This document shows, in pieces, positions 103-43,333 of a stretch of DNA of 43,333 bases. Below the pieces are notes generated by a model, which searched no databases, was not told the DNA's origin, and worked only from the letters and a program-made list of their open reading frames with translations. Origin of the DNA: Bilabrum cf. latius (Eukaryota); the NCBI GenBank assembly GCA_965178125.1, contig OZ237738.1, positions 1,612,001-1,655,333 on the forward strand, given 5' to 3'. How positions within the stretch are numbered: the stretch's first letter is position 1; every line of letters starts with the position of its first letter. Made by a program: the position numbers and the translations under genes.

Positions 103-1755
103 ATGGTTTCTTTATATGCTGGTGTCGATGCCGTGTTGCTTGACATGGATGGGGTTCTGGTGGAGGTCGCTGATTCCTACCGGGCTGCGATCGTAGGGAC
201 AGCAAAAGAGTTCGGTGTTACAGTCACAATGAAAGATATCGACGCAGCGAAGGCCAAAGGAGGTGCTAATAATGACTGGGTTCTGTCTCGACGGCTCATT
301 CTTGGCGACGAAAAGGCTGCCGATGCCACATAGACTCCCACGATTGACGACGTCACAGCTGTATTCGAGAGGTTGTACCAGGGGGAAGGCGGCAAGCCTG
401 GCTTGAAATCGTTGGAATAGCCTCTAGTACCGCGCGCGCTGCTACAGCAGCTCTTGGATCGCACTAGTGGGCGTGTATGCGTAGTTACCGGTCGTCCCCG
501 CGCGGACTGCGCGGAAGCGATGGCTCGCTTCGGCTGGGACTCCCTCATCCCATCCGAGAGCTGGGTCTGCATGGAAGACGGCCCACCTAAGCCGGACCCA
601 TTTCCGATCAACCGAGCCCTAGAAATCCTCAGCAAGCGCGGCCCAGCGGCCTTGCTGCCCTCCCGCGTGGCCATGGTTGGAGACACGGTGGATGACGTGG
701 TGGCGGCCAGGAAGGCCGGAGTGCGGGCCATTGGGGTGCTCACACCTGCTGCTGCGTATGAGGATTCTGGCAAGGAGGGTGCAGCGGGAGGCAAGCAGTC
801 GGACACTCGATCCATTCTGGAGGGGGAAGGGGCAGAGGCGGTGCTGCTGCCCGGGCTGGCGGGCTTGCCCGAGCTGCTCGAGAGCCGGCCCTCTAGCGGT
901 GGCATCTTCGAGGGGCAGGGTGGTGGCGATGCCGATGCGGTGCTCCGTGAGTTGCTGGGAGGAGGAGTAGGAGCAGGTGCGGGTCCTGCAGCCAGCGGGG
1001 CGGGGGCTTCCGGTGCGCCCCCACCCCCGCAGCCCCCGGCAGCCGCACTGGCGGGGGCAGGGCCCACAGGAGATCCCGAGAGGACACTGGCCGCCCTGCG
1101 GGTCAGAGCCAAGGCGATCGCAGCCTGCCCGCCGTCAGCTCCCGAGTGGGTGGCCAGGCACGGGTTCGTCCCTCGAGAGGGTTCGTGCACTCGTCACACC
1201 AAGGAGACCAGCATTTCTGCGTGGGTGCGGCTGGACGGGAGCGGCTGGTCAGCAGTCTCGACAGGCCTCGGTTTCCTGGACCACATGATCGGGGCCATGG
1301 CCAAGCACGGGCGCATGGACGTGCAGCTGCTATGCAAGGGGGATCTCTGGATCGACGACCACCACACCGCGGAGGATTGTTCCCTGGCCCTGGGGGAGGC
1401 CATGGACCGGGCCCTCGGTGCCAGGAAGGACATCACGCGGTGGGGCAGCGCCATGTGCCCCCTGGACGAGTCGCTGGCCCGCGCCGTGGTGGACGTGTCC
1501 TCACGGCCCTATGCGCACGTGGCTCTGGATCTGCAGCGGGACAGCGTGGGAGCCATCAGCTGCGAGATGCTGTCCCACTCGCTCGAGTCCCTCCTCACGG
1601 CTGCTCGTCTGACCGCGCACGTGGATGTGCTGCGGGGGTCCAACGACCACCACAAGGCCGAGGCTAGCTTCAAGGCGGTCGGGGTGGCACTCCGCACTGC
1701 CTTCAAGCGAGACGAAGGCGCGGGTGTTCCCAGCACGAAGGGCGTGCTGGCGTAA
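103..1755 (+). CDS. HIS3: Bifunctional HAD-family phosphatase / imidazoleglycerol-phosphate dehydratase (IGPD, HisB/HIS3-type), about 550 aa with TAG read as Gln
   Basis: ORFs 103..333 and 454..1755 share a frame, interrupted only by TAG at 331 and 418, and end at TAA 1753-1755. N-terminal HAD motifs: DMDGVL, VVTGRP, KPDP, MVGDTVDD. C-terminal IGPD signatures: RHTKET, GFLDHM, GDLWIDDHHTAED, NDHHKAEASFKA, VPSTKGVL. Confidence 0.93.
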
Positions 1756-26306: not shown

Positions 26307-27668
26307 TTACTCTTCCATGCCAGCTGCGCCACTGCTTCCCCCAGGGGCGGCAGGGCCCGGGGCCGCAGCTCCACCGGCGCCCCCAAGCACACCACCTCCA
26401 GCAGGTGCAGCAGCGGGTGCGTCCCCTGCGCCGTCATCCATGGGCGCCGCCCCGCCACCACCCAGCACCCTCCCCTCTCCAGTCCCGCCAGCAGTAGCTC
26501 CAGCGCCAGCCCTAGTGCCTCTAGACCGGAAGGGCATCCTGGCGGCACCCCCCGCGGCGGCCCCCGCCAACCCCCCCTTGCGCACAGCCTCTGGGAGCGA
26601 GGCGAAGAACGGATGCGCCAGGGCCTGCTCGGCTGTGACCCGCTTGGAAGGGTCGTGCTACAGCATACCACGCAGCAGATCCAGCCCGTCCTTGTCCAAT
26701 CCAGGCACCAGTCGCGCCACATCGTTGGCGGGGTACAACTTGAACTTGCCTGTGCGATACTGCGGCAGCTCGAGCAACCCAGGGAATGCTTCCTCCGTGG
26801 GCGTGCCCATAGTGCGAAATATACGCAGCAACTGGTCGTCGGGGTCTGCTCCGGGGAACAGAGGCTTCCCCGTCACCATCTCGGCAAAGATGCAGCCTAC
26901 GCTCCACAGGTCGACCGGTGTCGAATACTTGGTGGACCCCAGGAGGACATCCGGAGGGCGGTACCACAGAGTCACAACCTCGTGCGTATATGATCGCACA
27001 GGAATTCCAAAAGCCCTTGCCAGCCCGAAATCAGCCAACTTGAGCTTGCCTTCCCGGTTGATGAGTAAATTCTGGGGCTTAAGATCGCGATGCAGCACGT
27101 GATGCGTGTGGCAGTACGCGATGCCAAGAACCAACTGATACAATAAATGCCGTACTCGTGGGATCTCCAATCCGCCGCCAGTACCGTCCAGCAACTTCTT
27201 CAGATCCACATCCAAGAACTCGAACACGAGCGTTAGCTTCTTGTCGGTGTGCACGACATCGTACAGTCTGCGGTTGGCCAAAGGAAGCAAGGAGCACTAT
27301 GATGGCATGGTGAACACACGGGATTTACACTTACAGCAACCTCTACCATTCCCTGCAAGCTACGCAAGGTCTTGATTGGCCTTGTTCGCTTGGGTCTGAT
27401 GAATGCCCCTTGCATGTAACAATGAGGCTAGTGCAGCGATCTTCGACACATTATCAACAAAGTTCTAGTCTTACCTGACAATGTTCGGGTGTTTCAGCTC
27501 CTTGAGCAACGAAATTTCACGGATAGCGGTGGATGGGATGCCTTCATCTTCCGTCTCCAGCCTTATCCTCTTCAGGGCAACAATATCGCCGGTGTGTCTG
27601 TCCCTCGCCTTATACACGATTCCATATGTACCCTCCCCGACTCGTCCAAGCCTCTCGTAGCGCTCCAT
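26307..27668 (-). CDS. PSTAIRE cyclin-dependent kinase (cdc2/CDK5-like), about 384 aa; exons 27668..27475 and 27267..26307
   Basis: Motifs [64 protein letters not shown]. Intron GTAAG..CCGCAG spans 27474..27268 (207 nt). TAG 26660-26658 lies before subdomain XI ([20 protein letters not shown]). Gly/Ala-rich tail; stop TAA at 26309-26307. Confidence 0.93.
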
Positions 27669-27833
27669 TTAAGTAGTACAATGGAGTGGACCGCAGTGCC
27701 GATGTCGACACTGGTTCTCGTTCGAAAACACACCTTACAAATCTCCAGCAGCAACCTTTGTTTTAAGCAGTAGGAAGCGCGGTTTAAGATACGAATCAAG
27801 AAGTGATGCTGTGATCGCTCCGCAACACCTAGT

Positions 27834-30800
27834 ATGTCCCGCTGGATAGAGGAAGATTGGGGCAGCGAATCACAAGTGCCTGCTGCGCTTGCTCGCAAAC
27901 CCCCAAGTTTTGTAGCCGTGCGCAGCATCCCAATCCCCAAACTTGCGGTAAACGCATCGTAGTAGGATTATCAACGTAGTGGAGCCAAACGGCTAGCAGT
28001 GAATCACAGCAAGCGCTCCCTAGCAGACCTTGCTCAAAATGGGATTCGAAGGAGTCCGCCTGCATCTCCTAGAGGCGTAGGCGTGGACTCCGACGACGAA
28101 TCCCTTCATGATGTGGATCATACTGAAGTTGAAAACCGGCAATATGCTGCTGCCAGGTACCGGCCCCGAGAAGAATCGCAATCAAGGGGGCAACTTCTGC
28201 CGACCCGCACTTCAACGATTGCAGCAACGGTCAGCGGATTGGATCAAGTCATGGCCGGACTGTCACACATTCCAAAGGGTGTCACAGTGTAGACTGGCCA
28301 TGCACTGGATCAGCATCGAATGGATACATCTGTCACAGCCCCCCCGGTGTCATCGAGGCACAGCCCTGTCCCCACATCCCCGCGGCGAAGTCCGGTGCTC
28401 GTGCGATACCAATCTAGCAGAGACGAAGTCGCCCGGCTGAAGAGTGCCCTAGAGTTGTAGACACAGCTGGCACTCGCCTCAAGGGCCCGTGCCGATGCAG
28501 TCTCTTCGGCTCTGGCCCTCGAGCGCAGCCGGGCCAGCCTCCTGCTCACGGCCACCGCCGCGAGCCACCAGCAGACGCTGCCGGCAGTGAACAATGCTTC
28601 GAATGAGGTGGACCCCAGCTCAGAAGAAGGAAATGGGGTGGGATTTCCCGGTCGTGGAGCGACCAGCGACCAGGCAGCAGCCTACTCGCAGGTGCGCAGG
28701 TCGCAGGCTGCTCCTCCTCCGGCCGAGACCAGCTGCAGTGCAGTGCCAAGTGGGCAGTCTGCTCGAGAGCAAAAACGGAAGCAGGCAAGTAGCTCCACTC
28801 GAGCACAGTTCTTGCACGACTTTTCCTCTCGCTTGGTTGAAACACCCTCAGTATAGTTCGCCCCAACGTCAGTTACGAATGGCGGGACGCCGGCGCGGAC
28901 CATTCGAGCTTCAGATCCACCCATGAGCCGCAGCTACGTGCCGGGCCCTTCGCACCAGCCCTAGGGCAAAGCAATCCATTCGTCGCTCGCCTCTGCACCG
29001 CCTGGAAGGTTTGCACTATCCCGAGGCATGCTGCCCCCGATGGTCGGCACTGGCGAGGCTCGAGATAAGATGCGAGTCAGAGATGCAGGGCTCGAGTCCA
29101 GCGCGATGCTCCGGTCCCCTGGCCTTGGGGCATCCGTGGCATCGTTTCTGGGCACCCAGCGCCTTGGGCAGGCAGGCCTCAATCAGTCGGTCTAGTGGTC
29201 CGCGTCACAGTGGCAGCCAGAGCACACGCCTGTTGAACGTAGCAGTGCATCCGTGCCCAACAATCAAGAGCTGATATCCTTCGCGGCGGGAGCATCTGCC
29301 CGCATCAAGCAGCTGGAATAGGACCTGGCTGCAGCCCGAATGGAAGCGGAGAGAGAGCGCCAGCTCAGGGCCCTGCGGGAAGGCATAGAAAGGAGAGAGC
29401 AGCGAGACGAGAGCCGGTTCATGATGCGAGGCATGCAAGCAGAGGGGAACCGTCAAGTGCGCATTCCCGCCGAGAGCGACTTTAAAAGTCCTACAGGTTC
29501 CAGTAGTGCGGGGAATGGTGACATTTTCGTGGAACAGGACGGTGAGCAGCGTGAAGCTTAGTCGCACCGTACTATGGTCGACTCGCACGGCAAGCGGGCA
29601 GCAGATACCGCGAAGCAATCGTCGCAAGGTAAGTCTGGCCACGAACCGTCCAAAAACAGCTAGGAACCCAACGTACCATCTAGCCCGCAGCTTGATGTCG
29701 CTGGGTAGAGTGAATAGAGCGGCGCGTCGCAGCCGAAGAGTCGCCTTGCTCGGTCGGCTCTGTCGGGGTGGTACACGAAGGCTTTCGGGAGCTCAGCGGA
29801 CCAAGTCATGGGAAATACGCCCGTCGCATCCGAGGCTGTCGTCTATGAGCCGCCAAGTGATTGCCCAGAGGAGACCGTGCCTGGCTCGGGCACAACCACA
29901 CTACCCGAGACGAGCCCGCCGAGAGGCAAGGACCGTGAAACTGAGCAGAAGCTCCTGCTGGCTGATACGCTGCTGTCAATCCTAGGGGCGAAGGCGCTGG
30001 AGCACATGCAGCCAGCTTCTCAGTCCAAATTGAAGCAGGTATCACCCACAGTCAACAACCAGGCCGTGCGGGGGGCAAGCGAACCGATGCAGGATCATAT
30101 TGCCAACGAATCAGGCCGTGCTGACCACAGATCTAGCACGGCGGGAGCCCACCCGGCACGCGAAGCTTCATATCATCAACATCCGGAGGTCCACGTCCAC
30201 CACGAGCACGCGGTCCCAGTGGTGGATGCATCTGCGCACAGCCTGCTGCCTGAGCATGCGGCGGCGAGGCCATAGTTGGATGCAGCAACCATTGAGCACC
30301 GCTCCAGTGCTTCAGCAGTTGGTCTGAGAGGTCAAACCAATGCAAACCGTGGTCTGTATGTACCAGGGCATCAGCATGTACCAGAGTAGCAGCATGGCCA
30401 GCAGAGAAACCCAGCTCGGTCAGGGAGCGGCTCCGACAGCCTCCGAGCCGCCCTTGGTGTCCGATACGACCCGCGTGAACCGCCACTGTCCTCCATCGAT
30501 CGAAAGTATCCAGCCCTGCGCGGCGCACGGCAAGTTCAAACTAGCTCTCTCAACCATCAATCTCAGAGCGGTGGTGGTGCGCTTGGGATGGCCAGGGAGG
30601 CAGTTGCGCTGCGGCAGCAAATCGCGCAGGCCAAGCGGCAGCATGCTGAAGAGACCCTAAGGCGGATATCCGAGCTCGGAAACACGCGCGTATCTTCTCA
30701 TAGCGATGGTTGTGGGCAGATCAATGCTCATGTCGGTGTGGACGGTCTTCCAGTTCCCCAGATGCCCGAGTCATTGCCAGTGTCGCCTGTTTCGGTGCCG

Positions 30801-31712
30801 CCTGCCTCCCAATGGGTTGGACTAGACGAGGCAAGAGACCCTGCGATCGGACAGCCCCATCAGCCGCAAGAGCCTGTAGCAAGTACGATGGGAGTACCCG
30901 CCGCCACTGCACCCAGCTCGGGGGACATTTAGGCGCTCATGGACCACACTTCTGTGGCAAACAGTGAGGATGATCAAGGGGTGCTAGACTCGCCTGCACT
31001 GGACCACCCACCTGGTGCACCGCTTTCGTAGCCAATTGGATCTGGTGAAAGCTCGCAGCAGCATCGATCTATTGTTTCGGGGAATCATAGTGGTACAAAG
31101 TAGTCACCTGGCAGCAGCCCAAGGAGCAGTGGAAGGAGCACCTTCGATGTCCGAGTCTCCCACCTGGCATCCATCCCGCCTTCAGGTAGAAGCCACGCTC
31201 CCTAGGACCAAAGGTTGGGTGGAGGGTCTCTTATGCAGGGAATAGGAGAGCAGTCCTTGTCTCTGCAAGCAGACCCACTGGCAGTAGGCGGTGTGGGACG
31301 GGGCGAGGTTGTGGATCGTGCACGCCGGCCAGCAGAGGCAGCGGCTGAGGGACCTAGCCAGGCCGGACATGAGACCACGCACATGCGCATAGAACAATCT
31401 CCAGGTCCACATGCTTCGTGTCGATCGCAAGACGTGGCGGAGTCAGCAGCTGCAATTGTTGGATTGTCCAGAGGGCCGGGCGGTGCGGCTGTGCGAGGCA
31501 GCTCGGTCGTGAGCCGAGTCGGGGCAATCGGACCAGGTCGCGTTGCTGGCTCATGGTCTGCAGGGCGGGGTGCGCAGACGGAGCAAACAAGTGCCACCCC
31601 GCGAATGCAAACAGAAGGATCAGGAGGTGGTGGATCACGAGGCAGCGTCGTAGTGCTACAGCCCGCCCACAGAATGCCACCAAGGACTGGCAGCAGCCCT
31701 GCGCAGCAATGA
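27834..31712 (+). CDS. Large hypothetical disordered / coiled-coil protein, about 1292 aa
   Basis: ATG at 27834. Track ORFs 27999, 28587, 29340, 29808, 30588 and 31215 share one frame, joined by at least 14 TAG including the tandem TAGTAG at 27960-27965. Coiled-coil segments RIKQLE*DLAAARMEAERERQLRALREGIERREQR and AREAVALRQQIAQAKRQHAEETLRR. Stop TGA at 31710-31712. Confidence 0.68.
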
Positions 31713-32374
31713 GCGTCCAGTGTGTTGTTCAAAAGTATATGTTGTTCGGAAAGTATAGATCAAGTCTGTTAAAAAAGAGTGTACATGGATCACGGATGTC
31801 AACTGATGCAGCTTCAAACTCCTGCGTTACGTCCCACCGGCCACAGCCACCGAGAAATTGGGGCTCATGGTCACCATCAACTCCTTCGCGCGCTGAACCG
31901 CTGCCTGTGACGGCTATTGGGGCGAAATATTGCCCTACAGTCTTTCGGCCGCGATTCGGCGATGGTGCCAGAGCAGCTAATCTGGAGCGGACGGCTCAAA
32001 ATGGCGCAATCCAGCTGCCAAAACCACCCTCTATAAATGGACGGTTGTACCGCTCATCAAGACGTATCTGAGTGCATTCACCAGACTTCATCGATAATGC
32101 ACTCCACTGCACTACTCACGCAGCCTGAGGTCGCACAACTTCGAGCTGGAGTCGACCCGTCGCTCCACAACAGGTAACCGTGGAGTGATTATCGCACTGT
32201 GCCCTGCACTCTACGCAGTATTCTTGCATGGGAATTTCCTTGGGCTAATTTGTGCTTCAGGGTCGTTCACACTGTGGGTTCAGATCATTTTCTACTCTAT
32301 CAACCTAGGGATCAATATACTATTTGTTTGAACTTGATTTGTGCACTGCTGGTAAATCCTAGTTATTCTTTACG

Positions 32375-35300
32375 ATGAACGCCCAACGAGCTCGCCTGAA
32401 AAGCTGGTCGTAGCGTAGAAAGAGCAAGCGGGGCCGAGCCCAGAGCAGTTCCAGTGAATCATCCAGCAGCGGTGCCAGCGATGCAGACGTGGAGGTTGAT
32501 GGTGCTGACGTGAGTTTAGTTTCTGTGTCTGGACGACAGGCCATGCGTGACAGCATAGAAGCTTCGCGTATCGATCGAGAAAGACAGCTACGCCTCGCTG
32601 CGGATCGCAAGGCTCGGAAAAAATGGTTCGCACCGGCTTCTGACGATGGTCTAGCTGATTTTATCGTCGGTAGTGATGAGGAAGAGGAGGAAGAAGACGA
32701 GCCACCTCCCAAAAAAAAGCGGCGGCGAGACAGCGGCCAGGTCGGCACGGCATCGTCCAAATCATCTAGCGAGGACGACAGCGATTCCTCGGATGCTGCA
32801 CCGGTCATGGGCCATTTTGGACTAATGCTGCAGCAAGATTTGCGATATGAAAAGGATTCGAGCACGCCAGGTCTTGGTTTCATGCGCGAGCTGCACGCCC
32901 GAGGGCTCCTACGCGTCCCTCGCGGCATCCAGGCCGACGACTACGTTTCAGTGAGCTCTCCCTCGCGCGGGACTGGCACTGCGGGAGACCTGCTCGAGGT
33001 TGGGGCATTCCTGGACATGGGGCGGAGACTCCCAGCCTTTACTCGGTTCAGCCTGTACCTGCGCATGCTGGCGCTGCACCTGTGCTACCGGCATGCGGCC
33101 AGGTACCTCAGGGCCCGGCCCCGGTCCGAGGACTCCCGCTGCTGGGTGCTGGCCAGGGATTCGGTGGAGGCCGTGCTCAACCGACACGCAGAGAACGTGC
33201 GTTCTGGTGCGTGGTAGCAAAAAGGTACGGCAGCAGCCGCTGCGCAGGGACTGTCCGCAAGCTTCGCGCGAGCCAACGCGGAGGCAGGGCAGCACGAGTC
33301 TGCCATCACCGCCTCTGCTGTCGCAGTGCAGCACCTTCCCGGTATCGCCATTGCATCACTCCCGACGGAACTTAGGCCAGCTCGGTGCGGGCTGTGCAAC
33401 CGCCGCATGCCCGCCCGCCTCGCCCTGACTATGTTCTCGCTTGGATCGGCTGCGTGGCACCCGATGCAACTGCGGGACGAGAGCGATTTCCGAGCCTCGA
33501 CCTGGAGCTCCAGGGGCAGGCACGTAAAGGGCGAAGGCAAGGCTGGTCGCAGGGCCAGCAAGGATCAGGTCCGGGCCTGGGAGTGGATGGCGGTGCCTCC
33601 TGGGTGGGAGTCTTCCATCCCGAGACAGGGGGACAAGGGGGTGGCGGGGGCGGGGCTGCACGATCCTCTCTCGGCTGCTGTGGGGGCCTTCCGGACACGG
33701 AGACATGCGCCTGGCGTGCGATTGCGGCGAGGGGGGTGGACAAACCCGTATGATTACGTGCAGGTGCCAGGGTGCGCCTGGTACTAGGGGTAGTCGAGCA
33801 CTTGGGCCGCGTCTGCTAGCCCACAGAGGCGCTAGCGAATATCCAGTGCCATGGCGGCGCTTGGCGGGGCTGGTGGGAAGATGGAATGGGCGCAATCACA
33901 CAAGGGTGGTCCTGCTCATCTTCCACCGAGGTATGCAGTGTCAGTGGCTGCTGGCACCACGTGCGCCCAGCGCATGGCCCTCTATTCGTCCTGCATCCAC
34001 TTCAAGGGCAGGCTGCTGGCCGCTGTGTCGTCCCACCTGCGGCAGTCACTCAAGTTCGGGGCAGCGCTCGACCGAGCACGATTGCGTGCGCGGGAGAAAC
34101 AGGGCAAGCAGGCCGCCTCTGCAGCTGGTGCTAGCGAGGACTACGAGCAATCCGCTGCCAAGACGAAGCCTAGCTCAGGCTCTTCGTCCGAGGATGAGGC
34201 GGAGTGGAGCGATGACCCCGGTGCACAAGTGAAGGGCAAGCCCAGGCCTTCTCGACTAAACACCACTGTGGACTCGGAGTCTGAGAGTGACGGTGGCACG
34301 GCTGCAGACTCAAAGGCCGCCTCTGTGGTGGAGTCAGTGAGGCGAGACAAAGCACCTTTCAGCAAGGGACAGGCGCGCGCAGCTCTGCCCAGAGCACCCG
34401 AGATGGAGGAATTGACCCGGGCTGTGAGTGGGCCCGCCTGGCAGTCCCTAGAGCGGACGTGGTACCAGCGCATGGTGGAGCTCCAGCGATAGGCCACTGG
34501 GTTCTTGCTCAGCAGTTCTCGGTCAGAGCGGGTGTCAGTCCGCAGCATGCTGCACCAGATCGCATCCATGGCCACGAATGAAGCTGATGATGACCGAGTG
34601 GCGATGCGACAGCTAAATGCATCTACTCAACGTCTCGGGCGCAGGAAGAAATCCACTGGGGAAAAAGGCAAGGGTGCAGGAGGTAGCGACTCGGAAGATA
34701 ATGAGGACTACAGGCTAGGCAGTCCCTTCCGATTAGCAACACGAGGCGGGCACTCGGGAAAGCATGCAGCCCATGCACCTAAACTGGCTGCCGAGTGGAT
34801 CACTGCAGCCGAGGATGCAGAAATGACGGAGGAGGGGAACGGTCTCGTTGCATTCGCGAACTCTCTGCCCATGGGTGGCATGCCTGGCAGTAGCGCTGGT
34901 GTTGGAGACGATGCGGAAGATGAGGAGGAGGAGGAGGGGGAGGCCGACTCGTCAGCAGATTCGCTGGGCTTCATGATCGGCCACTCCCCAGACGAAAAGG
35001 GAAGTGACAGCGAGGAGGACAGTAGCGACAGCGATGCTGGTGGAGGTAAAGACCCTAGCGCACAGGCTGCCGGATCACGCGCCAAAGAAGCCAGCGAATG
35101 GGATACTTCGGATGATGACGATGTTCTGAAAGCTGCGGGGCAACTCGAGTCAGATGCGTCCACGGAACCTGACGAGGAAGATGATAGTGGACAGGACGAA
35201 GTCGACGAGACTACTATAGGACCGTATCTCACCGGTAGTCGAAGTCGCAATCGATATTCAGTTGCAACTGGGCGGGCTCCGCCAGATGATACCCCCCCGC

Positions 35301-35773
35301 CGATTGCACTGTGTCGCTTCCTTACCGGCCCAAAGCCGAAACCGCCGAAAGAGAAGAGCAAGAAAAATGGCAAGAGCCGCGTGCTTGACGACATGTTATC
35401 GTTCTCGAGTGGCCATGAAGATTATAATGACGACGATGACGATGAGGATGAGGACGAGGATGAGGATTAGAATGGTGGAAGCATGGCGAGGAACTCCAGG
35501 TAGCAACCTCGAGGTAGTCGTCCGGATTCCGAACTCTTACGCGAAGTAGGCAGGAGGCGCTAGCCTTCCAAGGGTATGTCCGACAGCCAGCCGCGCGCAC
35601 CTGTGGTCGCAGAGCGGAAGCATGTAGTGGTTGTCAGTGACTCCTCAAGCAGCGATGAGTCTGTAGCAGCAGCAGATGGCAATGGCGCGGTGAGGGTGGA
35701 AAGTATAGCAGAAGAGGACAAACCGAAGAAGGTGAAACTTCCCATGCTCGGCAAACTGCGAGTCAGGTCCTAA
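32375..35773 (+). CDS. CCDC82/DUF4211-like protein with acidic low-complexity tracts, about 1132 aa
   Basis: ATG at 32375. One frame with at least 7 TAG (32411, 33215, 33785, 34490, 35468, 35501, 35561) and stop TAA at 35771-35773. ADFIVGSDEEE, SGAW, CGLCNR and AGTTCAQRMALYSSCIHFKGRL resemble the DUF4211 CxxC...C...H pattern as recalled from CCDC82. Confidence 0.62.
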
Positions 35774-35848
35774 CGAATGAACCCCATCGAATGTAGGCTA
35801 CTAGCAGTCATATACTTCTCGTTACTTCACTATTTGATCATACGGTCG

Positions 35849-36220
35849 TCCGTGGCCCTCGACTGAGTGTCACACGAACACCATGCCCTCATCCATGGCC
35901 CTCGCAGCCCGCCGACTGAGTGTCACACGAACACCATTCCCTCATCCATGGCCCTCGCAGCCCGCCGACTGAGTGTCACACGAACACCATGCTTTCACCC
36001 ATGGCCCTCGCAGCCCACCGACTGAGTGTCACACGAACACCATGCTTTCACCCATGGCCCTCGCAGCCCACCGACTGAGTGTCACACGAACACCATGCTT
36101 TCACCCATGGCCCTCGCAGCCCACCGACTGAGTGTCACACGAACACCATGCCCTCATCCATGGCCCTCGCAGCCCGCCGACTGAGTGTCACACGAACACC
36201 ATGCCCTCATCCATGGCCCT
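35849..36220. repeat. Subtelomeric tandem repeat, 53-bp unit, about 7 copies
   Basis: Unit GACTGAGTGTCACACGAACACCATGCCCTCATCCATGGCCCTCGCAGCCCGCC starts at 35861, 35914, 35967, 36020, 36073, 36126 and 36179. The last copy is truncated at the telomere. Confidence 0.95.
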
Positions 36221-36736
36221 AAGGGTTAAGGGTTAGGGTTAGGGTTAGGGTTAGGGTTAGGGTTAGGGTTAGGGTTAGGGTTAGGGTTAGGGTTAGGGTT
36301 AGGGTTAGGGTTAGGGTTAGGGTTAGGGTTAGGGTTAGGGTTAGGGTTAGGGTTAGGGTTAGGGTTAGGGTTAGGGTTAGGGTTAGGGTTAGGGTTAGGG
36401 TTAGGGTTAGGGTTAGGGTTAGGGTTAGGGTTAGGGTTAGGGTTAGGGTTAGGGTTAGGGTTAGGGTTAGGGTTAGGGTTAGGGTTAGGGTTAGGGTTAG
36501 GGTTAGGGTTAGGGTTAGGTTAGGGTTAGGGTTAGGGTTAGGGTTAGGGTTAGGGTTAGGGTTAGGGTTAGGGTTAGGGTTAGGGTTAGGGTTAGGGTTA
36601 GGGTTAGGGTTAGGGTTAGGGTTAGGGTTAGGGTTAGGGTTAGGGTTAGGGTTAGGGTTAGGGTTAGGGTTAGGGTTAGGGTTAGGGTTAGGGTTAGGGT
36701 TAGGGTTAGGGTTAGGGTTAGGGTTAGGGTTAGGGT
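36220..36736 (+). repeat. Telomeric repeat tract 1, (TTAGGG)n
   Basis: Continuous TTAGGG with variant units TAAGGG/TTAAGGG at the start and one TTAGG near 36515. Confidence 0.98.
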
Positions 36737-37509
36737 ATCTAATATAAAGTCAGGGACAGGGTCGGGGAAAAAATATTTTCATCTTCAATATTTGTCGAAA
36801 AACGACGTGCTACGATCTCGGCAACTACAGGTGATATGAAGACCGTTCAAACTGCATCGGGACGGCCTGGGGGCACAACATGGGCCAAATGTTCCCCAGG
36901 TTCCGTTCTGGCCGCGCGGCGCCGATATGGGTGTATGAAGAATTTCACACCGAAAAACGACGTGCTACGATCTCGGCAACTACAGGTGATATGAAGACCG
37001 TTCAAACTGCATCGGGACGGCCTGGGGGCACAACATGGGCCAAATGTTCCCCAGGTTCCGTTCTGGCCGCGCGGCGCCGATATGGGTGTATGAAGAATTT
37101 CACACCGAAAAACGACGTGCTACGATCTCGGCAACTACAGGTGATATGAAGACCGTTCAAACTGCATCGGGACGGCCTGGGGGCACAACATGGGCCAAAT
37201 GTTCCCCAGGTTCCGTTCTGGCCGCGCGGCGCCGATATGGGTGTATGAAGAATTTCACACCGAAAAACGACGTGCTACGATCTCGGCAACTACAGGTGAT
37301 ATGAAGACCGTTCAAACTGCATCGGGACGGCCTGGGGGCACAACATGGGCCAAATATTCCCCAGGTTCCGTTCTGGCCGCGCGGCGCTGATATGGGTGTA
37401 TGAAGATTTGCATGTCTATTCAATATGCATGGTTTATCTGTCAATTGTAGAATGGGGATGGTGTACATGACAGTTGTATTTGCTGTGTGGATTGCTTTGA
37501 TCTAAGGTA
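36737..37509. repeat. Telomere-embedded cassette A1: conserved leader, about 4 copies of 155-bp satellite subfamily A (36796..37406), about 100-bp AT-rich tail
   Basis: Leader ATCTAATATAAAGTCAGGGACAGGGTCGGGGAAAAAA. Monomers start CGAAAAACGACG at 36796, 36951, 37106 and 37261. Confidence 0.92.
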
Positions 37510-37762
37510 TTAGGGTTAAGGTTAGGGTTAGGGTTAGGGTTAGGGTTAGGGTTAGGGTTAGGGTTAGGGTTAGGGTTAGGGTTAGGGTTAGGGTTAGGGT
37601 TAGGGTTAGGGTTAGGGTTAGGGTTAGGGTTAGGGTTAGGGTTAGGGTTAGGGTTAGGGTTAGGGTTAGGGTTAGGGTTAGGGTTAGGGTTAGGGTTAGG
37701 GTTAGGGTTAGGGTTAGGGTTAGGGTTAGGGTTAGGGTTAGGGTTAGGGTTAGGGTTAGGGT
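37510..37762 (+). repeat. Telomeric repeat tract 2, (TTAGGG)n
   Basis: TTAGGG array with one TTAAGG variant as the second unit. Confidence 0.97.
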
Positions 37763-39516
37763 ATCTAATATAAAGTCAGGGACAGGGTCGGGGAAAAAAA
37801 ATTTTCATCTTCACTTTTTGTCGAAAAAATGCGCGCGACGATCTCGGCAACCAGATGAGATATGAGGACCGTTCAAACTGCATCGGGACGGCCTGGGGGT
37901 ACAATGTGGGGCAAATGTTCCCCAGGTTCCGTTTTGACCGCGCGGCGACAATATGGCTGGACGAAGATTGTCATGCAGAAAAAATGCGCGCAACGATCTC
38001 GGCAACCAGATGAGATATGAAGACTGTTCAAACTGCATCGGGACGGCCTGGGGGTACAATGTTAGGCAAATGTTCCCCAGGTTCCGTTTATACCGCGCGG
38101 CGACAATATGGCTGGACGAAGATTGTCATGCAGAAAAAATGCGCGCGACGATCTCGGCAACCAGATGAGATATGAAGACCGTTCAAACTGCATCGGGACG
38201 GCCTGGGACCACAACTGGGGGCAAATGTTCCCCAGGTTCCGTTTATACCGCGCGGCGACAATATGGCTGGACGAAGATTGTCATGCAGAAAAAATGCGCG
38301 CGGCGATCTCGGCAACCAGATGAGATATGAAGACCGTTCAAACTGCATCGGGACGGCCTGGGACCACAACTGGGGGCAAATGTTCCCCAGGTTCCGTTTA
38401 TACCGCGCGGCGACAATATGGCTGGACGAAGATTGTCATGCAGAAAAAATGCGCGCGACGATCTCGGCAACCAGATGAGATATGAAGACCGTTCATACTG
38501 CATCGGGACGGCCTGGGGGTACAATGTGGGGCAAATGTTCCCCAGATTCCGTTTTGACCGCGCGGCGACAGTATGGGGGGACGAAGATTTTCAGGCAGAA
38601 AAAATGCGCGCGGCGATCTCGGCAACCACAGGAGATATGAAGACCGTTCAAACTGCATCGGGACGGCCTGGGACCACAACTGGGGGCAAATGTTCCCCAG
38701 GTTCCGTTTATACCGCGCGGCGACAATATGGCTGGACGAAGATTGTCATGCAGAAAAAATGCGCGCGGCGATCTCGGCAACCAGATGAGATATGAAGACC
38801 GTTCAAACTGCATCGGGACGGCCTGGGACCACAACTGGGGGCAAATGTTCCCCAGGTTCCGTTTATTCCGCGCGGCGACAATATGGCTGGACGAAGATTG
38901 TCATGCAGAAAAAATGCGCGCGACGATCTCGGCAACCAGATGAGATATGAAGACCGTTCATACTGCATCGGGACGGCCTGGGGGTACAATGTGGGGCAAA
39001 TGTTCCCCAGATTCCGTTTTGACCGCGCGGCGACAGTATGGGGGGACGAAGATTTTCAGGCAGAAAAAATGCGCGCGGCGATCTCGGCAACCACAGGAGA
39101 TATGAAGACCGTTCAAACTGCATCGGGACGGCCTGGGACCACAACAGGGGGCAAATGTTCCCCAGGTTCCGTTTATACCGCGCGGCGACAGTATGGTGGG
39201 ACGAAGATTGTCATGCAGAAAAAATGCGCGCGGCGATCTCGGCAACCAGATGAGATATGAAGACCGTTCAAACTGCATCGGGACGGCCTGGGACCACAAC
39301 TGGGGGCAAATGTTCCCCGTGATTCTATTACATCAAGCATTGCAAGTATGGGGTTTGCACACCTACATGGTTGGGTTTGCATACGTACATGGGTTCGGGT
39401 TAGGTAAGAGGTTTTCCTTAGGGGCGTTCATTAGCTGTAAATGAGATTTCTTGATTTCAGCCGTTCATTCGCACTTTGAGTCATCATCATGTGTCATGTG
39501 TGCGAAGTTTGGAGAA
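37763..39516. repeat. Telomere-embedded cassette B1: same leader, about 9.7 copies of 155-bp satellite subfamily B (37822..39318), about 200-bp tail
   Basis: Monomers at 155-bp spacing from 37822. They share the core GATCTCGGCAAC...GATATGAAGACCGTTCAAACTGCATCGGGACGGCCTGGG...CAAATGTTCCCCAGGTTCCGTT with subfamily A. Confidence 0.92.
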
Positions 39517-39906
39517 TAGGGTTAGGGTTAGGGTTAGGGTTAGGGTTAGGGTTAGGGTTAGGGTTAGGGTTAGGGTTAGGGTTAGGGTTAGGGTTAGGGT
39601 TAGGGTTAGGGTTAGGGTTAGGGTTAGGGTTAGGGTTAGGGTTAGGGTTAGGGTTAGGGTTAGGGTTAGGGTTAGGGTTAGGGTTAGGGTTAGGGTTAGG
39701 GTTAGGGTTAGGGTTAGGGTTAGGGTTAGGGTTAGGGTTAGGGTTAGGGTTAGGGTTAGGGTTAGGGTTAGGGTTAGGGTTAGGGTTAGGGTTAGGGTTA
39801 GGGTTAGGGTTAGGGTTAGGGTTAGGGTTAGGGTTAGGGTTAGGGTTAGGGTTAGGGTTAGGGTTAGGGTTAGGGTTAGGGTTAGGGTTAGGGTTAGGGT
39901 TAGGGT
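39517..39906 (+). repeat. Telomeric repeat tract 3, (TTAGGG)n
   Basis: Pure TTAGGG array of about 390 bp. Confidence 0.97.
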
Positions 39907-40679
39907 ATCTAATATAAAGTCAGGGACAGGGTCGGGGAAAAAATATTTTCATCTTCAATATTTGTCGAAAAACGACGTGCTACGATCTCGGCAACTACAG
40001 GTGATATGAAGACCGTTCAAACTGCATCGGGACGGCCTGGGGGCACAACATGGGCCAAATGTTCCCCAGGTTCCGTTCTGGCCGCGCGGCGCCGATATGG
40101 GTGTATGAAGAATTTCACACCGAAAAACGACGTGCTACGATCTCGGCAACTACAGGTGATATGAAGACCGTTCAAACTGCATCGGGACGGCCTGGGGGCA
40201 CAACATGGGCCAAATGTTCCCCAGGTTCCGTTCTGGCCGCGCGGCGCCGATATGGGTGTATGAAGAATTTCACACCGAAAAACGACGTGCTACGATCTCG
40301 GCAACTACAGGTGATATGAAGACCGTTCAAACTGCATCGGGACGGCCTGGGGGCACAACATGGGCCAAATGTTCCCCAGGTTCCGTTCTGGCCGCGCGGC
40401 GCCGATATGGGTGTATGAAGAATTTCACACCGAAAAACGACGTGCTACGATCTCGGCAACTACAGGTGATATGAAGACCGTTCAAACTGCATCGGGACGG
40501 CCTGGGGGCACAACATGGGCCAAATATTCCCCAGGTTCCGTTCTGGCCGCGCGGCGCTGATATGGGTGTATGAAGATTTGCATGTCTATTCAATATGCAT
40601 GGTTTATCTGTCAATTGTAGAATGGGGATGGTGTACATGACAGTTGTATTTGCTGTGTGGATTGCTTTGATCTAAGGTA
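39907..40679. repeat. Cassette A2, copy of A1 at +3170 bp
   Basis: Sequence and spurious ORFs recur at exactly +3170 (36880 to 40050, 37157 to 40327). Confidence 0.92.
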
Positions 40680-40932
40680 TTAGGGTTAAGGTTAGGGTTA
40701 GGGTTAGGGTTAGGGTTAGGGTTAGGGTTAGGGTTAGGGTTAGGGTTAGGGTTAGGGTTAGGGTTAGGGTTAGGGTTAGGGTTAGGGTTAGGGTTAGGGT
40801 TAGGGTTAGGGTTAGGGTTAGGGTTAGGGTTAGGGTTAGGGTTAGGGTTAGGGTTAGGGTTAGGGTTAGGGTTAGGGTTAGGGTTAGGGTTAGGGTTAGG
40901 GTTAGGGTTAGGGTTAGGGTTAGGGTTAGGGT
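40680..40932 (+). repeat. Telomeric repeat tract 4, (TTAGGG)n
   Basis: Same length and same TTAAGG variant as tract 2. Confidence 0.97.
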
Positions 40933-42686
40933 ATCTAATATAAAGTCAGGGACAGGGTCGGGGAAAAAAAATTTTCATCTTCACTTTTTGTCGAAAAAAT
41001 GCGCGCGACGATCTCGGCAACCAGATGAGATATGAGGACCGTTCAAACTGCATCGGGACGGCCTGGGGGTACAATGTGGGGCAAATGTTCCCCAGGTTCC
41101 GTTTTGACCGCGCGGCGACAATATGGCTGGACGAAGATTGTCATGCAGAAAAAATGCGCGCAACGATCTCGGCAACCAGATGAGATATGAAGACTGTTCA
41201 AACTGCATCGGGACGGCCTGGGGGTACAATGTTAGGCAAATGTTCCCCAGGTTCCGTTTATACCGCGCGGCGACAATATGGCTGGACGAAGATTGTCATG
41301 CAGAAAAAATGCGCGCGACGATCTCGGCAACCAGATGAGATATGAAGACCGTTCAAACTGCATCGGGACGGCCTGGGACCACAACTGGGGGCAAATGTTC
41401 CCCAGGTTCCGTTTATACCGCGCGGCGACAATATGGCTGGACGAAGATTGTCATGCAGAAAAAATGCGCGCGGCGATCTCGGCAACCAGATGAGATATGA
41501 AGACCGTTCAAACTGCATCGGGACGGCCTGGGACCACAACTGGGGGCAAATGTTCCCCAGGTTCCGTTTATACCGCGCGGCGACAATATGGCTGGACGAA
41601 GATTGTCATGCAGAAAAAATGCGCGCGGCGATCTCGGCAACCAGATGAGATATGAAGACCGTTCATACTGCATCGGGACGGCCTGGGGGTACAATGTGGG
41701 GCAAATGTTCCCCAGATTCCGTTTTGACCGCGCGGCGACAGTATGGGGGGACGAAGATTTTCAGGCAGAAAAAATGCGCGCGGCGATCTCGGCAACCACA
41801 GGAGATATGAAGACCGTTCAAACTGCATCGGGACGGCCTGGGACCACAACTGGGGGCAAATGTTCCCCAGGTTCCGTTTATACCGCGCGGCGACAATATG
41901 GCTGGACGAAGATTGTCATGCAGAAAAAATGCGCGCGGCGATCTCGGCAACCAGATGAGATATGAAGACCGTTCAAACTGCATCGGGACGGCCTGGGACC
42001 ACAACTGGGGGCAAATGTTCCCCAGGTTCCGTTTATTCCGCGCGGCGACAATATGGCTGGACGAAGATTGTCATGCAGAAAAAATGCGCGCGACGATCTC
42101 GGCAACCAGATGAGATATGAAGACCGTTCATACTGCATCGGGACGGCCTGGGGGTACAATGTGGGGCAAATGTTCCCCAGATTCCGTTTTGACCGCGCGG
42201 CGACAGTATGGGGGGACGAAGATTTTCAGGCAGAAAAAATGCGCGCGGCGATCTCGGCAACCACAGGAGATATGAAGACCGTTCAAACTGCATCGGGACG
42301 GCCTGGGACCACAACAGGGGGCAAATGTTCCCCAGGTTCCGTTTATACCGCGCGGCGACAGTATGGTGGGACGAAGATTGTCATGCAGAAAAAATGCGCG
42401 CGGCGATCTCGGCAACCAGATGAGATATGAAGACCGTTCAAACTGCATCGGGACGGCCTGGGACCACAACTGGGGGCAAATGTTCCCCGTGATTCTATTA
42501 CATCAAGCATTGCAAGTATGGGGTTTGCACACCTACATGGTTGGGTTTGCATACGTACATGGGTTCGGGTTAGGTAAGAGGTTTTCCTTAGGGGCGTTCA
42601 TTAGCTGTAAATGAGATTTCTTGATTTCAGCCGTTCATTCGCACTTTGAGTCATCATCATGTGTCATGTGTGCGAAGTTTGGAGAA
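40933..42686. repeat. Cassette B2, copy of B1 at +3170 bp
   Basis: Recurs at +3170 (37811 to 40981). One substitution seen: A38458 versus G41628. Confidence 0.92.
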
Positions 42687-42963
42687 TAGGGTTAGGGGTT
42701 AGGGTTAGGGTTAGGGTTAGGGTTAGGGTTAGGGTTAGGGTTAGGGTTAGGGTTAGGGTTAGGGTTAGGGTTAGGGTTAGGGTTAGGGTTAGGGTTAGGG
42801 TTAGGGTTAGGGTTAGGGTTAGGGTTAGGGTTAGGGTTAGGGTTAGGGTTAGGGTTAGGGTTAGGGTTAGGGTTAGGGTTAGGGTTAGGGTTAGGGTTAG
42901 GGTTAGGGTTAGGGTTAGGGTTAGGGTTAGGGTTAGGGTTAGGGTTAGGGTTAGGGTTAGGGT
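42687..42963 (+). repeat. Telomeric repeat tract 5, (TTAGGG)n
   Basis: About 277 bp, with one TTAGGGG variant near 42695. Confidence 0.97.
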
Positions 42964-43004
42964 ATCTAATATAAAGTCAGGGACAGGGTCGGGGAAAAAA
43001 TATT
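42964..43004. repeat. Truncated leader-only cassette (A type)
   Basis: ATCTAATATAAAGTCAGGGACAGGGTCGGGGAAAAAATATT is followed directly by TAGGTTAGGG. Confidence 0.9.
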
Positions 43005-43333
43005 TAGGTTAGGGTTAGGGTTAGGGTTAGGGTTAGGGTTAGGGTTAGGGTTAGGGTTAGGGTTAGGGTTAGGGTTAGGGTTAGGGTTAGGGTTAGGGTT
43101 AGGGTTAGGGTTAGGGTTAGGGTTAGGGTTAGGGTTAGGGTTAGGGTTAGGGTTAGGGTTAGGGTTAGGGTTAGGGTTAGGGTTAGGGTTAGGGTTAGGG
43201 TTAGGGTTAGGGTTAGGGTTAGGGTTAGGGTTAGGGTTAGGGTTAGGGTTAGGGTTAGGGTTAGGGTTAGGGTTAGGGTTAGGGTTAGGGTTAGGGTTAG
43301 GGTTAGGGTTAGGGTTAGGGTTAGGGTTAGGGT
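43005..43333 (+). repeat. Terminal telomere tract, (TTAGGG)n, G-rich strand running 5' to 3' toward the window end
   Basis: TTAGGG continues to the last base; the orientation is that of a right chromosome end. Confidence 0.95.

What the first reader, a model, noticed from the sequence alone, without database searches (positions are those of the whole stretch)
36737..43004. Composite telomere: polar cassettes inserted at one fixed register of TTAGGG, a candidate telomere-associated non-autonomous element
Seen: five inserts (36737, 37763, 39907, 40933, 42964) all begin with the junction TTAGGGT|ATCTAATATAAAGTCAGGGACAGGGTCGGGGAAAAAA. They share orientation but have different distal ends (about 773, 1754 and 41 bp), each re-capped by telomeric repeats. 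The 37-nt leader is identical in A and B cassettes although their satellites differ by roughly a fifth of positions by eye. Established: fixed proximal junctions with variable, telomere-capped distal ends typify elements added to chromosome termini (endonuclease-deficient Penelope-like elements), while telomere-flanked cassettes also spread by recombination (yeast Y', C. elegans TALT). Inference: a non-coding element copied onto or into telomeres in trans. No RT, helicase or transposase is encoded here.
Basis: partly seen in the sequence, partly recalled or inferred. Interest (0 to 1): 0.75.

Follow-up and report, generated by a model that had tools for sequence, protein, structure and literature searches.

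The report
Repeat cassettes stacked inside a telomere
The end of this protist chromosome is a telomere interrupted by non-coding repeat cassettes that all start at the same point of the telomere repeat, most likely copied there by recombination between telomere tracts, as known from worms, yeast and a fungus.

Summary
The 37-nt leader occurs five times on the + strand with no mismatch, each time after TTAGGGT. It heads cassettes of 774, 1754, 774, 1754 and 41 bp, each followed by TTAGGG repeats.

The five junctions are not independent. A-tract-B (36737-39516) and its second copy (39907-42686) differ at 1 of 2780 bases and share the same internal telomere tract. That is a recent segmental duplication.

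Contigs of other public runs show the same telomere-leader junction ahead of a third cassette type (X5). They also show a variant that keeps only the first 19 leader bases (X8), and four further satellite-to-telomere joints in X1.

No RT, helicase or transposase domain, Rfam family, hammerhead core or tRNA was found.

Best reading (about 0.5): a telomere-embedded cassette family spread by telomere-homology-primed copying (loop-back or break-induced replication). Broken or aborted ends were then healed by telomerase. This resembles natural TALT arrays and amplified MoTeR arrays. Copying of a non-autonomous RNA by a reverse transcriptase in trans remains possible (about 0.25). The host is a GC-rich stramenopile; no whole genome or RNA data could be used.

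The parts
35860..36220 (+). 53-bp subterminal satellite (6.8 copies), the last chromosome-specific sequence. It is cut inside a unit and joined to the first telomere tract.
36222..36736 (+). Telomere tract 1, about 86 TTAGGG repeats. It opens with irregular repeats (TAAGGG, TTAAGGG), has one TTAGG variant near 36515, and ends ...TTAGGGT at the leader.
36737..37510 (+). Cassette A: leader about 36737-36796, then 3.9 x 155-bp units (36796-37406), then a tail of about 104 bp.
37511..37762 (+). Telomere tract 2 (a TTAAGG variant, then 40 perfect repeats). It is identical in both copies of the module.
37763..39516 (+). Cassette B: the same leader, 9.7 x 155-bp units with a 465-bp higher-order period, and a tail of about 198 bp that contains degenerate telomere-like GGGTTCGGGTTAGG at 39391-39404.
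39517..39906 (+). Telomere tract 3 (64 perfect repeats), the joint between the two copies of the module.
39907..42686 (+). Second copy of A - tract 2 - B (A' 39907-40680, tract 40681-40932, B' 40933-42686). It differs from 36737-39516 at 1 of 2780 bases.
42687..42963 (+). Telomere tract 5 (one TTAGGGG variant, then 44 perfect repeats).
42964..43004 (+). 41-nt stub: an A-type leader cut after ...TATTT and continued by TTAGG/TTAGGG repeats.
43005..43333 (+). Terminal telomere tract (54 perfect repeats), running to the end of the window.

Best explanation
This is a chromosome end of a GC-rich stramenopile. Its telomere has been lengthened with copies of a non-coding, polar cassette family, each built as leader, 155-bp satellite and family-specific tail. 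The proposed mechanism is as follows. A telomeric 3' end invades a TTAGGG tract that lies just proximal to a leader, on the same end by loop-back, on the sister chromatid, or on another end. DNA synthesis then copies the leader and everything distal to it. The junction TTAGGGT|leader is therefore inherited unchanged at every round. Wherever copying aborts or the end breaks, telomerase re-caps it, starting with irregular repeats. Repetition of this cycle gives [tract-cassette]n arrays. Shown: the layout, the near-identical 3.17-kb duplicate with its identical internal tract, the healed-looking distal joints, and the presence of the junction in other runs. Inferred: strand invasion and break-induced copying as the engine, telomerase as the healer, and a single ancestral origin of the telomere-leader junction. 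The leader's conservation would then come from constraint (it holds the only + strand TATAAAG motifs of the window) or from homogenisation, since it is the first sequence copied after each invasion.
For: (1) 36737-39516 and 39907-42686 differ at 1 of 2780 bases and carry the same internal tract, including its TTAAGG variant. The flanking tracts differ (about 86, 64 and 44 repeats). This is the pattern described for loop-back invasion of interstitial tracts in amplified MoTeR arrays (PMC8381367, passages) and for duplication by telomere-repeat homology in natural TALT1 arrays (PMC9066243, whole text). (2) Four of the 5 tracts that follow non-telomeric DNA open with irregular repeats, while every tract ends perfectly at the leader. 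(3) X1 contigs join satellite units to telomere repeats at four further positions (36870, 36907, 36949, 36955). These joints show 1-3 nt of overlap with the repeat and irregular first repeats. Their depths are very unequal (1462, 238, 22, 342), as expected if healed ends are themselves re-copied as DNA. (4) The B tail joins its satellite at the same unit position in run X5, so the tails are fixed parts of the families and not random truncations. (5) The B array has a 465-bp higher-order period (96.6% against 92-93% at other shifts), which is ordinary DNA-level satellite dynamics. (6) No RT, hammerhead, Rfam family or tRNA was found in or beside the cassettes.
Against: An RNA that reads through A-tract-B could be copied as one unit, so the duplicate does not exclude RT copying. 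One polar leader heads at least four post-leader variants in X1, a third cassette type in X5 and a 19-nt variant in X8. Shared ends on different bodies are typical of transposon families. The 41-nt stub is an unlikely breakpoint if breaks fall evenly over a 3.2-kb unit (about 1 in 77), whereas early abortion is common for reverse transcripts. Identity over 37 nt against about 18% divergence of the satellites needs constraint or homogenisation, although the satellites also hold invariant 31-nt blocks. No other chromosome end, donor copy or single long read could be examined, so the higher-order arrangement rests on the assembly.
Confidence: 0.5

Rival explanations
1. The cassettes are a non-autonomous terminal retroelement. 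A minus-strand RNA runs from the tail to the leader and into C-strand repeats. It anneals to, or is used at, the G-overhang and is reverse-transcribed in trans by an endonuclease-deficient Penelope-like RT, another telomere-targeted RT, or telomerase itself. This would give a fixed proximal (3') junction and 5'-truncated distal ends that telomerase then caps.
For: The orientation is polar and the register is the same in A, B, the stub, X5 and X8. Truncated copies exist: the 41-nt stub and four satellite-to-telomere joints in X1. On the minus strand the leader holds three degenerate C-strand-like hexamers close to the putative 3' end, reminiscent of the (NNNCCC)n stretches named for EN- PLEs (PMC8557442, passages). 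Several cassette bodies share one end.
Against: No hammerhead was found: Rfam gave 0 hits at E up to 5 on both strands, and the core-motif scan gave 0 hits in the cassettes against 2 elsewhere and 1.52 expected. The degenerate hexamers lie 13 nt from the junction and so could not prime at the observed joint. No RT domain was found in 12 + 29 + 61 ORFs of the window. The tails are family-specific and conserved. The one datable event is a segment duplication that includes a telomere tract.
Confidence: 0.25
2. The array is an assembly artefact. Reads or contigs were joined through long perfect TTAGGG tracts, so the order and number of cassettes, or their attachment to this chromosome, would be wrong.
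For: The tracts are 240-515 bp of perfect repeat. The two modules are nearly identical. The structure sits at the end of the window. No read-level check of the whole array was possible.
Against: The individual junctions are real. Telomere-leader, leader-unit, unit-unit and unit-B-tail joints all stand in contigs of other runs (X5, X7, X8), and many variants stand in X1. An artefact could change the copy number or the chromosome, but not the existence of telomere-flanked cassettes.
Confidence: 0.07
3. Rolling-circle copying from an extrachromosomal circle [A-tract-B-tract], a 'roll and spread' process, rather than invasion of a chromosomal tract. This is a variant of the recombination model.
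For: There is a tandem 3.17-kb period with an identical internal tract.
Against: The tracts between successive modules differ in length (64 against 44 repeats), whereas a circle should give equal joints. Only two and a bit units are present.
Confidence: 0.1

Closest known systems
TALT1/TALT2 'template for ALT' arrays of Caenorhabditis elegans (PMC4595603 passages; PMC9066243 whole text)
   Same: A block of non-telomeric DNA is flanked by telomere tracts in the same orientation. Tandem [short telomere tract + block] arrays occur at a natural chromosome end in wild strains. Copies are gained through telomere-repeat homology.
   Different: TALT is a single-copy-derived genomic block with an internal donor locus. 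Here at least two, and probably more, satellite-based families share one conserved leader. The tracts are telomere-length and perfect, and telomerase seems active. No donor locus could be sought.
MoTeR arrays of Pyricularia oryzae and their amplification by telomere attrition-induced replication (PMC8381367 passages)
   Same: The elements are polar and sit head-to-tail inside the telomere, separated by telomere tracts. Very short truncated relics occur. Arrays grow when the end loops back into an interstitial tract, and the tract length at the new joint varies.
   Different: MoTeR1 encodes an RT and MoTeRs carry telomere-like variant repeats at the distal (5') end. Here no RT was found, and the variant hexamers sit at the proximal end.
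Endonuclease-deficient Penelope-like elements Athena and Coprina (PMC8557442 passages)
   Same: They lie at chromosome termini and attach to telomeric repeats in one orientation. They carry C-rich telomere-like stretches near the proximal end.
   Different: No RT ORF and no hammerhead ribozyme were found here, and the telomere-like hexamers are degenerate and not terminal.
Saccharomyces cerevisiae Y' elements and type I survivors (named in a passage of PMC4595603; details recalled)
   Same: These are subtelomeric elements in tandem, separated by internal telomere tracts and amplified by recombination.
   Different: Y' is several kb long and encodes a helicase (recalled). The cassettes here are short and non-coding.
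LORE-TEARS of the stramenopile Aurantiochytrium limacinum (bioRxiv 10.1101/2023.06.15.545109, passages)
   Same: These are families of long tandem repeats at the chromosome ends of a heterotrophic stramenopile.
   Different: Their units are 366-529 bp and are interspersed with rDNA, not with telomere tracts. The telomere there is TTAGG. No sequence relation was tested.

Membership tests
Endonuclease-deficient Penelope-like elements (Athena/Coprina), or a non-autonomous derivative | PLE-type reverse transcriptase ORF in the element | tested here: not met
   The cassettes have no ORF beyond translated repeats. No RT domain was found in the 12 largest ORFs, in 29 ORFs of 24-36 kb, or in 61 ORFs of 70 aa or more in 27.3-36.2 kb.
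Endonuclease-deficient Penelope-like elements (Athena/Coprina), or a non-autonomous derivative | An autonomous partner (telomere-associated PLE RT) elsewhere in the genome | not testable with these tools
   No whole genome is held for this window.
Endonuclease-deficient Penelope-like elements (Athena/Coprina), or a non-autonomous derivative | Hammerhead ribozyme motif next to the 3' end | tested here: not met
   Rfam gave 0 hits at gathering score and 0 at E up to 5 for 36700-39560 on both strands. The core-motif scan gave no hit in 36222-43333.
Endonuclease-deficient Penelope-like elements (Athena/Coprina), or a non-autonomous derivative | [quoted passage not shown] | tested here: inconclusive
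   Three degenerate hexamers (TCAGGG ACAGGG TCGGGG on the + strand) are present but start 13 nt from the junction.
TALT-type telomere-embedded template arrays | Non-telomeric block flanked by telomere tracts of the same orientation | tested here: met
TALT-type telomere-embedded template arrays | Tandem [tract + block] array at a chromosome end, with copy gain through telomere-repeat homology | tested here: met
   The 3.17-kb module is present twice with 1 difference in 2780 bases and an identical internal tract. The joint tracts have different lengths.
TALT-type telomere-embedded template arrays | Internal genomic donor copy, and spread to many ends | not testable with these tools
   No genome is held. 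X1 contigs show many variants and further joints, but depth could not be calibrated.
MoTeR-type telomere-targeted retrotransposons | Telomere-like variant repeats at the distal (5') end of each element | tested here: not met
   The ends of the A and B tails carry none. The variant hexamers lie in the proximal leader, and one internal relic lies in the B tail at 39391-39404.
MoTeR-type telomere-targeted retrotransposons | Fixed proximal (3') joint to telomere repeats, with truncated relics | tested here: met
   The joint is the same in A, B, the stub, X5 and X8. A 41-nt stub is present.
MoTeR-type telomere-targeted retrotransposons | RT-encoding autonomous member | tested here: not met
   None was found in the window. 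The genome could not be tested.

The most novel reading that the evidence does not exclude
The leader is the 3' end of a non-coding RNA that is reverse-transcribed in trans directly onto G-overhangs ending ...TTAGGGT. The enzyme would be telomerase or an endonuclease-free telomerase-like RT. On this reading a stramenopile lineage builds composite telomeres from a non-autonomous terminal retroelement that lacks the hammerhead of known terminal Penelope-like elements. The recombination seen here would only amplify what that process seeds.
Probability: 0.2. Interest if true: 0.8.

Novelty: new variant of a known kind. Interest (0 to 1): 0.5.

Why it matters
Telomere-embedded template cassettes are mostly known from telomerase-deficient survivors, from a few wild worm strains, and from a fungus that carries telomeric retrotransposons. 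Here such an array stands in a wild stramenopile. Its interstitial tracts are long and perfect, and there are clear traces of telomerase healing. Several cassette families share one conserved leader, and the leader-telomere joint is also seen in runs labelled as other organisms.

If the pattern holds for many chromosome ends, it would be a natural system for two questions. The first is how recombination and telomerase together shape chromosome ends. The second is whether a conserved leader acts as a copying start, a promoter or an RNA end. If it is RT-driven, it would extend terminal retroelements to a new lineage and a new form.

Tried and rejected
- **Own genome:** none is held, so the number of ends, donor copies, TERT and RT genes could not be sought.
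- **Earlier notes of this scan:** none exist for this genome or for look-alike stretches. The word search 'telomere TTAGGG interstitial' returned only other genomes.
- **Collection scans:** the leader 31-mer and the invariant satellite 21-mer gave 0 and 0 in metagenome contigs. A satellite 31-mer gave 0 in genome contigs. The junction 25-mer gave 0 in viral contigs.
- **Protein-word search:** the leader plus first-unit reading frame was used to try to catch predicted ORFs on other assemblies. Two candidates shared words and none scored.
- **RNA runs:** no RNA holder is listed among the 13 runs, so expression and strand could not be addressed.
- **Copy number:** summed contig depth at the leader in X1 is about 0.36-0.46 million, against about 1.0-1.2 million at the satellite. 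No single-copy calibrator was laid, so no copy number is claimed.
- **Structured RNA in the 155-bp unit:** RNAalifold on 9 distinct units found 1 of 41 pairs (+ strand) and 0 of 34 pairs (- strand) with a compensatory change. There is no support for a structure.
- **RNA families and motifs:** Rfam gave 0 hits. ARAGORN gave 0 tRNA or tmRNA genes. The hammerhead core motif was absent from the cassettes.
- **Bacterial-type promoter and terminator scan:** not meaningful for a eukaryote.
- **Leader as a stramenopile core promoter:** TATAAAG occurs on the + strand only in the five leaders. The oomycete INR (YCAYTYY) and FPR (MWTTTNC) definitions in PMC3599244 (passages) are not matched exactly in the leader when read by eye. 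That paper also reports no TATA box in oomycetes. This is kept only as a lead.
- **Helitron reading:** rejected by eye, from recalled Helitron features. TTAGGG repeats hold no AT target dinucleotide, and the B tail lacks the expected 3' end.
- **Cassette relatives in the proximal window:** blastn against window 1-36221 gave only 11-12-nt hits.
Full report
**Observation**

The window ends in TTAGGG repeats with the G-rich strand running 5' to 3' towards the end, so it is a right-hand chromosome end. The 37-nt leader occurs exactly five times, all on the + strand, at 36737, 37763, 39907, 40933 and 42964. Shuffled sequence gives 0. Each copy follows ...TTAGGGT.

The layout from inside to end is as follows:
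- recognisable genes up to about 27.3 kb;
- 8.5 kb without recognisable domains;
- a 53-bp satellite (35860-36220);
- telomere tract 1, about 86 repeats;
- cassette A, 774 bp: leader, 3.9 x 155-bp units, tail of about 104 bp;
- tract 2, 40 perfect repeats after a TTAAGG variant;
- cassette B, 1754 bp: the same leader, 9.7 x 155-bp units, tail of about 198 bp;
- tract 3, 64 repeats;
- A again, tract 2 again, B again;
- a tract of 44 repeats;
- a 41-nt leader stub;
- 54 repeats to the end of the window.

A and B units differ at 27-32 of 155 positions. The leaders are identical over 37 nt and at 57 of 60 positions.

**The five junctions are not independent**

36737-39516 and 39907-42686 differ at one base (38458). 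They include the same internal telomere tract with the same variant repeat. The tracts on either side of the module differ in length. The window thus shows one very recent duplication of a 3.17-kb A-tract-B module, plus the beginning of a third round that stops 41 nt into an A-type leader. At most three junctions are independent: A, B and the stub.

**Host and surroundings**

The window is GC-rich, about 0.58-0.68 in the gene part. It encodes MTHFR, a tubulin-tyrosine-ligase-like protein, an eIF2B-family subunit, a HAD-IGPD fusion, ribosomal protein L13 and a protein kinase. The MTHFR ORF has a 98% match from an unnamed assembly. Its best named relatives are Cafeteria (55%) and oomycetes (about 47%), so the host is a stramenopile without a close named relative in that collection.

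No RT, helicase or transposase domain was found in the 12 largest ORFs, in 29 ORFs of 24-36 kb, or in all 61 stop-to-stop ORFs of 70 aa or more between 27.3 and 36.2 kb. Cassette parts have no relative in window 1-36221. The cassettes therefore lie only distal to the first telomere tract.

That first tract starts inside a 53-bp satellite unit with irregular repeats. This looks like an older, healed chromosome end onto which the cassettes were later added.

**Anatomy of the junctions**

Every tract ends perfectly at TTAGGGT|leader. Four of the five tracts that follow non-telomeric DNA open with irregular repeats: TAAGGG/TTAAGGG, TTAAGG, TTAGGGG and TTAGG. The stub is cut after ...TATTT, which overlaps the repeat by two or three T. 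On the + strand the leader reads as 13 AT-rich bases containing TATAAAG, then three degenerate telomere-like hexamers, then A6-8. TATAAAG occurs on the + strand of the whole window only in the five leaders.

**Evidence from other public data**

Thirteen runs hold part of 36737-39516. Four runs of 'organism A' hold 0.49-0.84 of the sampled words, and runs labelled as four other organisms hold 0.22-0.36. None is on record as RNA. I laid Logan contigs of X1, X5, X7 and X8 on 36719-36960.

- **X5.** A 539-nt contig runs from 28 nt of TTAGGG repeats through the leader in the same register. It continues into a third kind of first unit and then into an unrelated tail. Another contig leaves the satellite at the same unit position as the B tail here, with the same first 30 letters.
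- **X8.** A contig has telomere repeats plus only the first 19 leader bases, and then 127 unlike bases.
- **X7.** It covers the satellites only.
- **Shared contig.** A 174-nt A-type unit-to-unit contig is identical in X5, X7 and X8.
- **X1.** 1169 contigs were laid. There are at least two further post-leader variants. Four joints connect a satellite unit directly to telomere repeats (after 36870, 36907, 36949 and 36955). Each joint has 1-3 nt of overlap and irregular first repeats. Their depths are 1462, 238, 22 and 342.

So the junction and the cassette family exist outside this window and outside this assembly's five copies. The differently labelled organisms are evidently close kin or share the organism. 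Depth could not be turned into a copy number.

**What it is not**

- Rfam gives nothing at gathering score for the whole window, and nothing at E up to 5 for 36700-39560.
- A hammerhead core scan finds nothing in the cassettes: 2 hits elsewhere against 1.52 expected.
- ARAGORN finds no tRNA or tmRNA gene.
- Consensus folding of nine distinct units shows 1 of 41 and 0 of 34 pairs with compensatory change on the two strands. There is no evidence for a structured RNA.
- Reading frames in the cassettes are translations of repeats.

**Mechanism**

The best-supported account is DNA-level copying primed by telomere homology. A telomeric 3' end invades a tract proximal to a leader and copies the leader and whatever lies distal. 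This reproduces the junction register at every round. It keeps internal tracts identical and makes joint tracts of variable length, which is exactly what one search shows.

The same pattern is described in two known systems. One is loop-back invasion of interstitial tracts in MoTeR arrays of telomerase-knockout Pyricularia. In that system the number of repeats at the new joint depends on the invading end and on the register of invasion (PMC8381367, passages). The other is the six-copy TALT1 array of a wild C. elegans strain, made 'using homology of telomeric repeats' (PMC9066243, whole text). TALT itself is defined as a genomic block flanked by telomere-like tracts in the same orientation and tandemly integrated in telomeres (PMC4595603, passages).

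Other observations fit this account. The irregular tract starts and the microhomology joints fit re-capping of broken or aborted ends by telomerase (inference). The unequal depths of the X1 joints suggest that healed ends are themselves re-copied. The 465-bp higher-order period inside B is ordinary satellite turnover. I put this reading at about 0.5.

**The rival**

Polarity and one shared end on several bodies in several runs are what a terminal non-autonomous retroelement would leave. So are the 41-nt stub, the truncated and capped copies, and the C-strand-like hexamers near the putative RNA 3' end. A read-through RNA could also carry A-tract-B as a unit.

Several points count against it. 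[quoted passage not shown] The hammerhead is missing here, and the hexamers are degenerate and lie 13 nt from the joint. No RT is in reach. The tails are fixed family parts. No RNA data exist. I put this reading at about 0.25.

An assembly artefact (about 0.07) could alter the copy number or the attachment to this chromosome, but not the existence of the junctions, which other runs confirm. Rolling-circle copying is a sub-variant of the recombination model and fits the unequal joint tracts less well.

**The leader**

Its perfect conservation across A, B, the stub and X5, and of its first 19 nt in X8, needs explaining, given about 18% divergence of the units. There are two possibilities. One is constraint, through a promoter-like TATAAAG facing the chromosome end or through an RNA 3' end. 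The other is homogenisation, because the leader is the first sequence copied after every invasion.

The satellites also contain invariant 31-nt blocks, so rate heterogeneity is general here. The oomycete INR and FPR definitions (PMC3599244, passages) are not matched exactly by eye, and that paper finds no TATA boxes in oomycetes. The promoter idea is therefore only a lead.

**Novelty and verdict**

The kind is known: telomere-flanked cassettes stacked in a telomere and amplified through telomere homology, as in TALT, Y' and MoTeR arrays. What is new is the host lineage and the satellite-based non-coding cassettes in several families under one conserved leader. Also new are the telomere-length perfect interstitial tracts and the recurrence of the joint in related organisms.

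My searches of the held paper library turned up no description of this structure. These were searches by concept, not by sequence. The nearest stramenopile report, on LORE-TEARS, concerns rDNA-linked repeats without interstitial telomere tracts. I rate this a new variant of a known kind, with interest 0.5. The decisive data are the other chromosome ends, long reads and stranded RNA, none of which were available here.

Noticed in passing
window 35860-36232: A 53-bp satellite (6.8 copies, 96% matches) is the last chromosome-specific sequence. It is cut inside a unit and joined to the first telomere tract through irregular TAAGGG/TTAAGGG repeats. This looks like an older healed end.
   Followed up: partly
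window 37823-39318: The B satellite has a three-unit (465-bp) higher-order period. Self-identity is 96.6% at shift 465, against 92-93% at shifts 155, 310 and 620. Units B5 and B8 are identical.
   Followed up: yes
window 36743, 37769, 39913, 40939, 42970: TATAAAG occurs on the + strand of the whole 43-kb window only inside the five leaders, facing the chromosome end. It is a possible TATA-like element, or chance in an AT-rich 13-mer.
   Followed up: partly
window 39391-39404: The B tail holds a short degenerate telomere-like stretch (GGGTTCGGGTTAGG) after two copies of a motif of about 21 nt. It may be a relic of an older healed end inside the cassette.
   Followed up: no
window 27400-35860: About 8.5 kb between the last recognisable gene (a kinase, 26658-27296) and the 53-bp satellite has no Pfam match at a curated cut-off in 61 ORFs of 70 aa or more.
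   Followed up: partly
window 454-1755: This ORF combines a HAD-type hydrolase domain with imidazoleglycerol-phosphate dehydratase, a bifunctional HisB-like arrangement in a eukaryote.
   Followed up: no
run X8 contig laid at window 36719-36755: A variant keeps telomere repeats plus only the first 19 leader bases, then goes on with unrelated sequence that again holds an A-run about 20 nt further on. The conserved core of the leader may be only these 19 nt.
   Followed up: no
window 36796-39318, - strand: Read on the minus strand, every 155-bp unit ends in a run of 5-6 T, and the leader holds T6-8. No known small-RNA family matched.
   Followed up: partly
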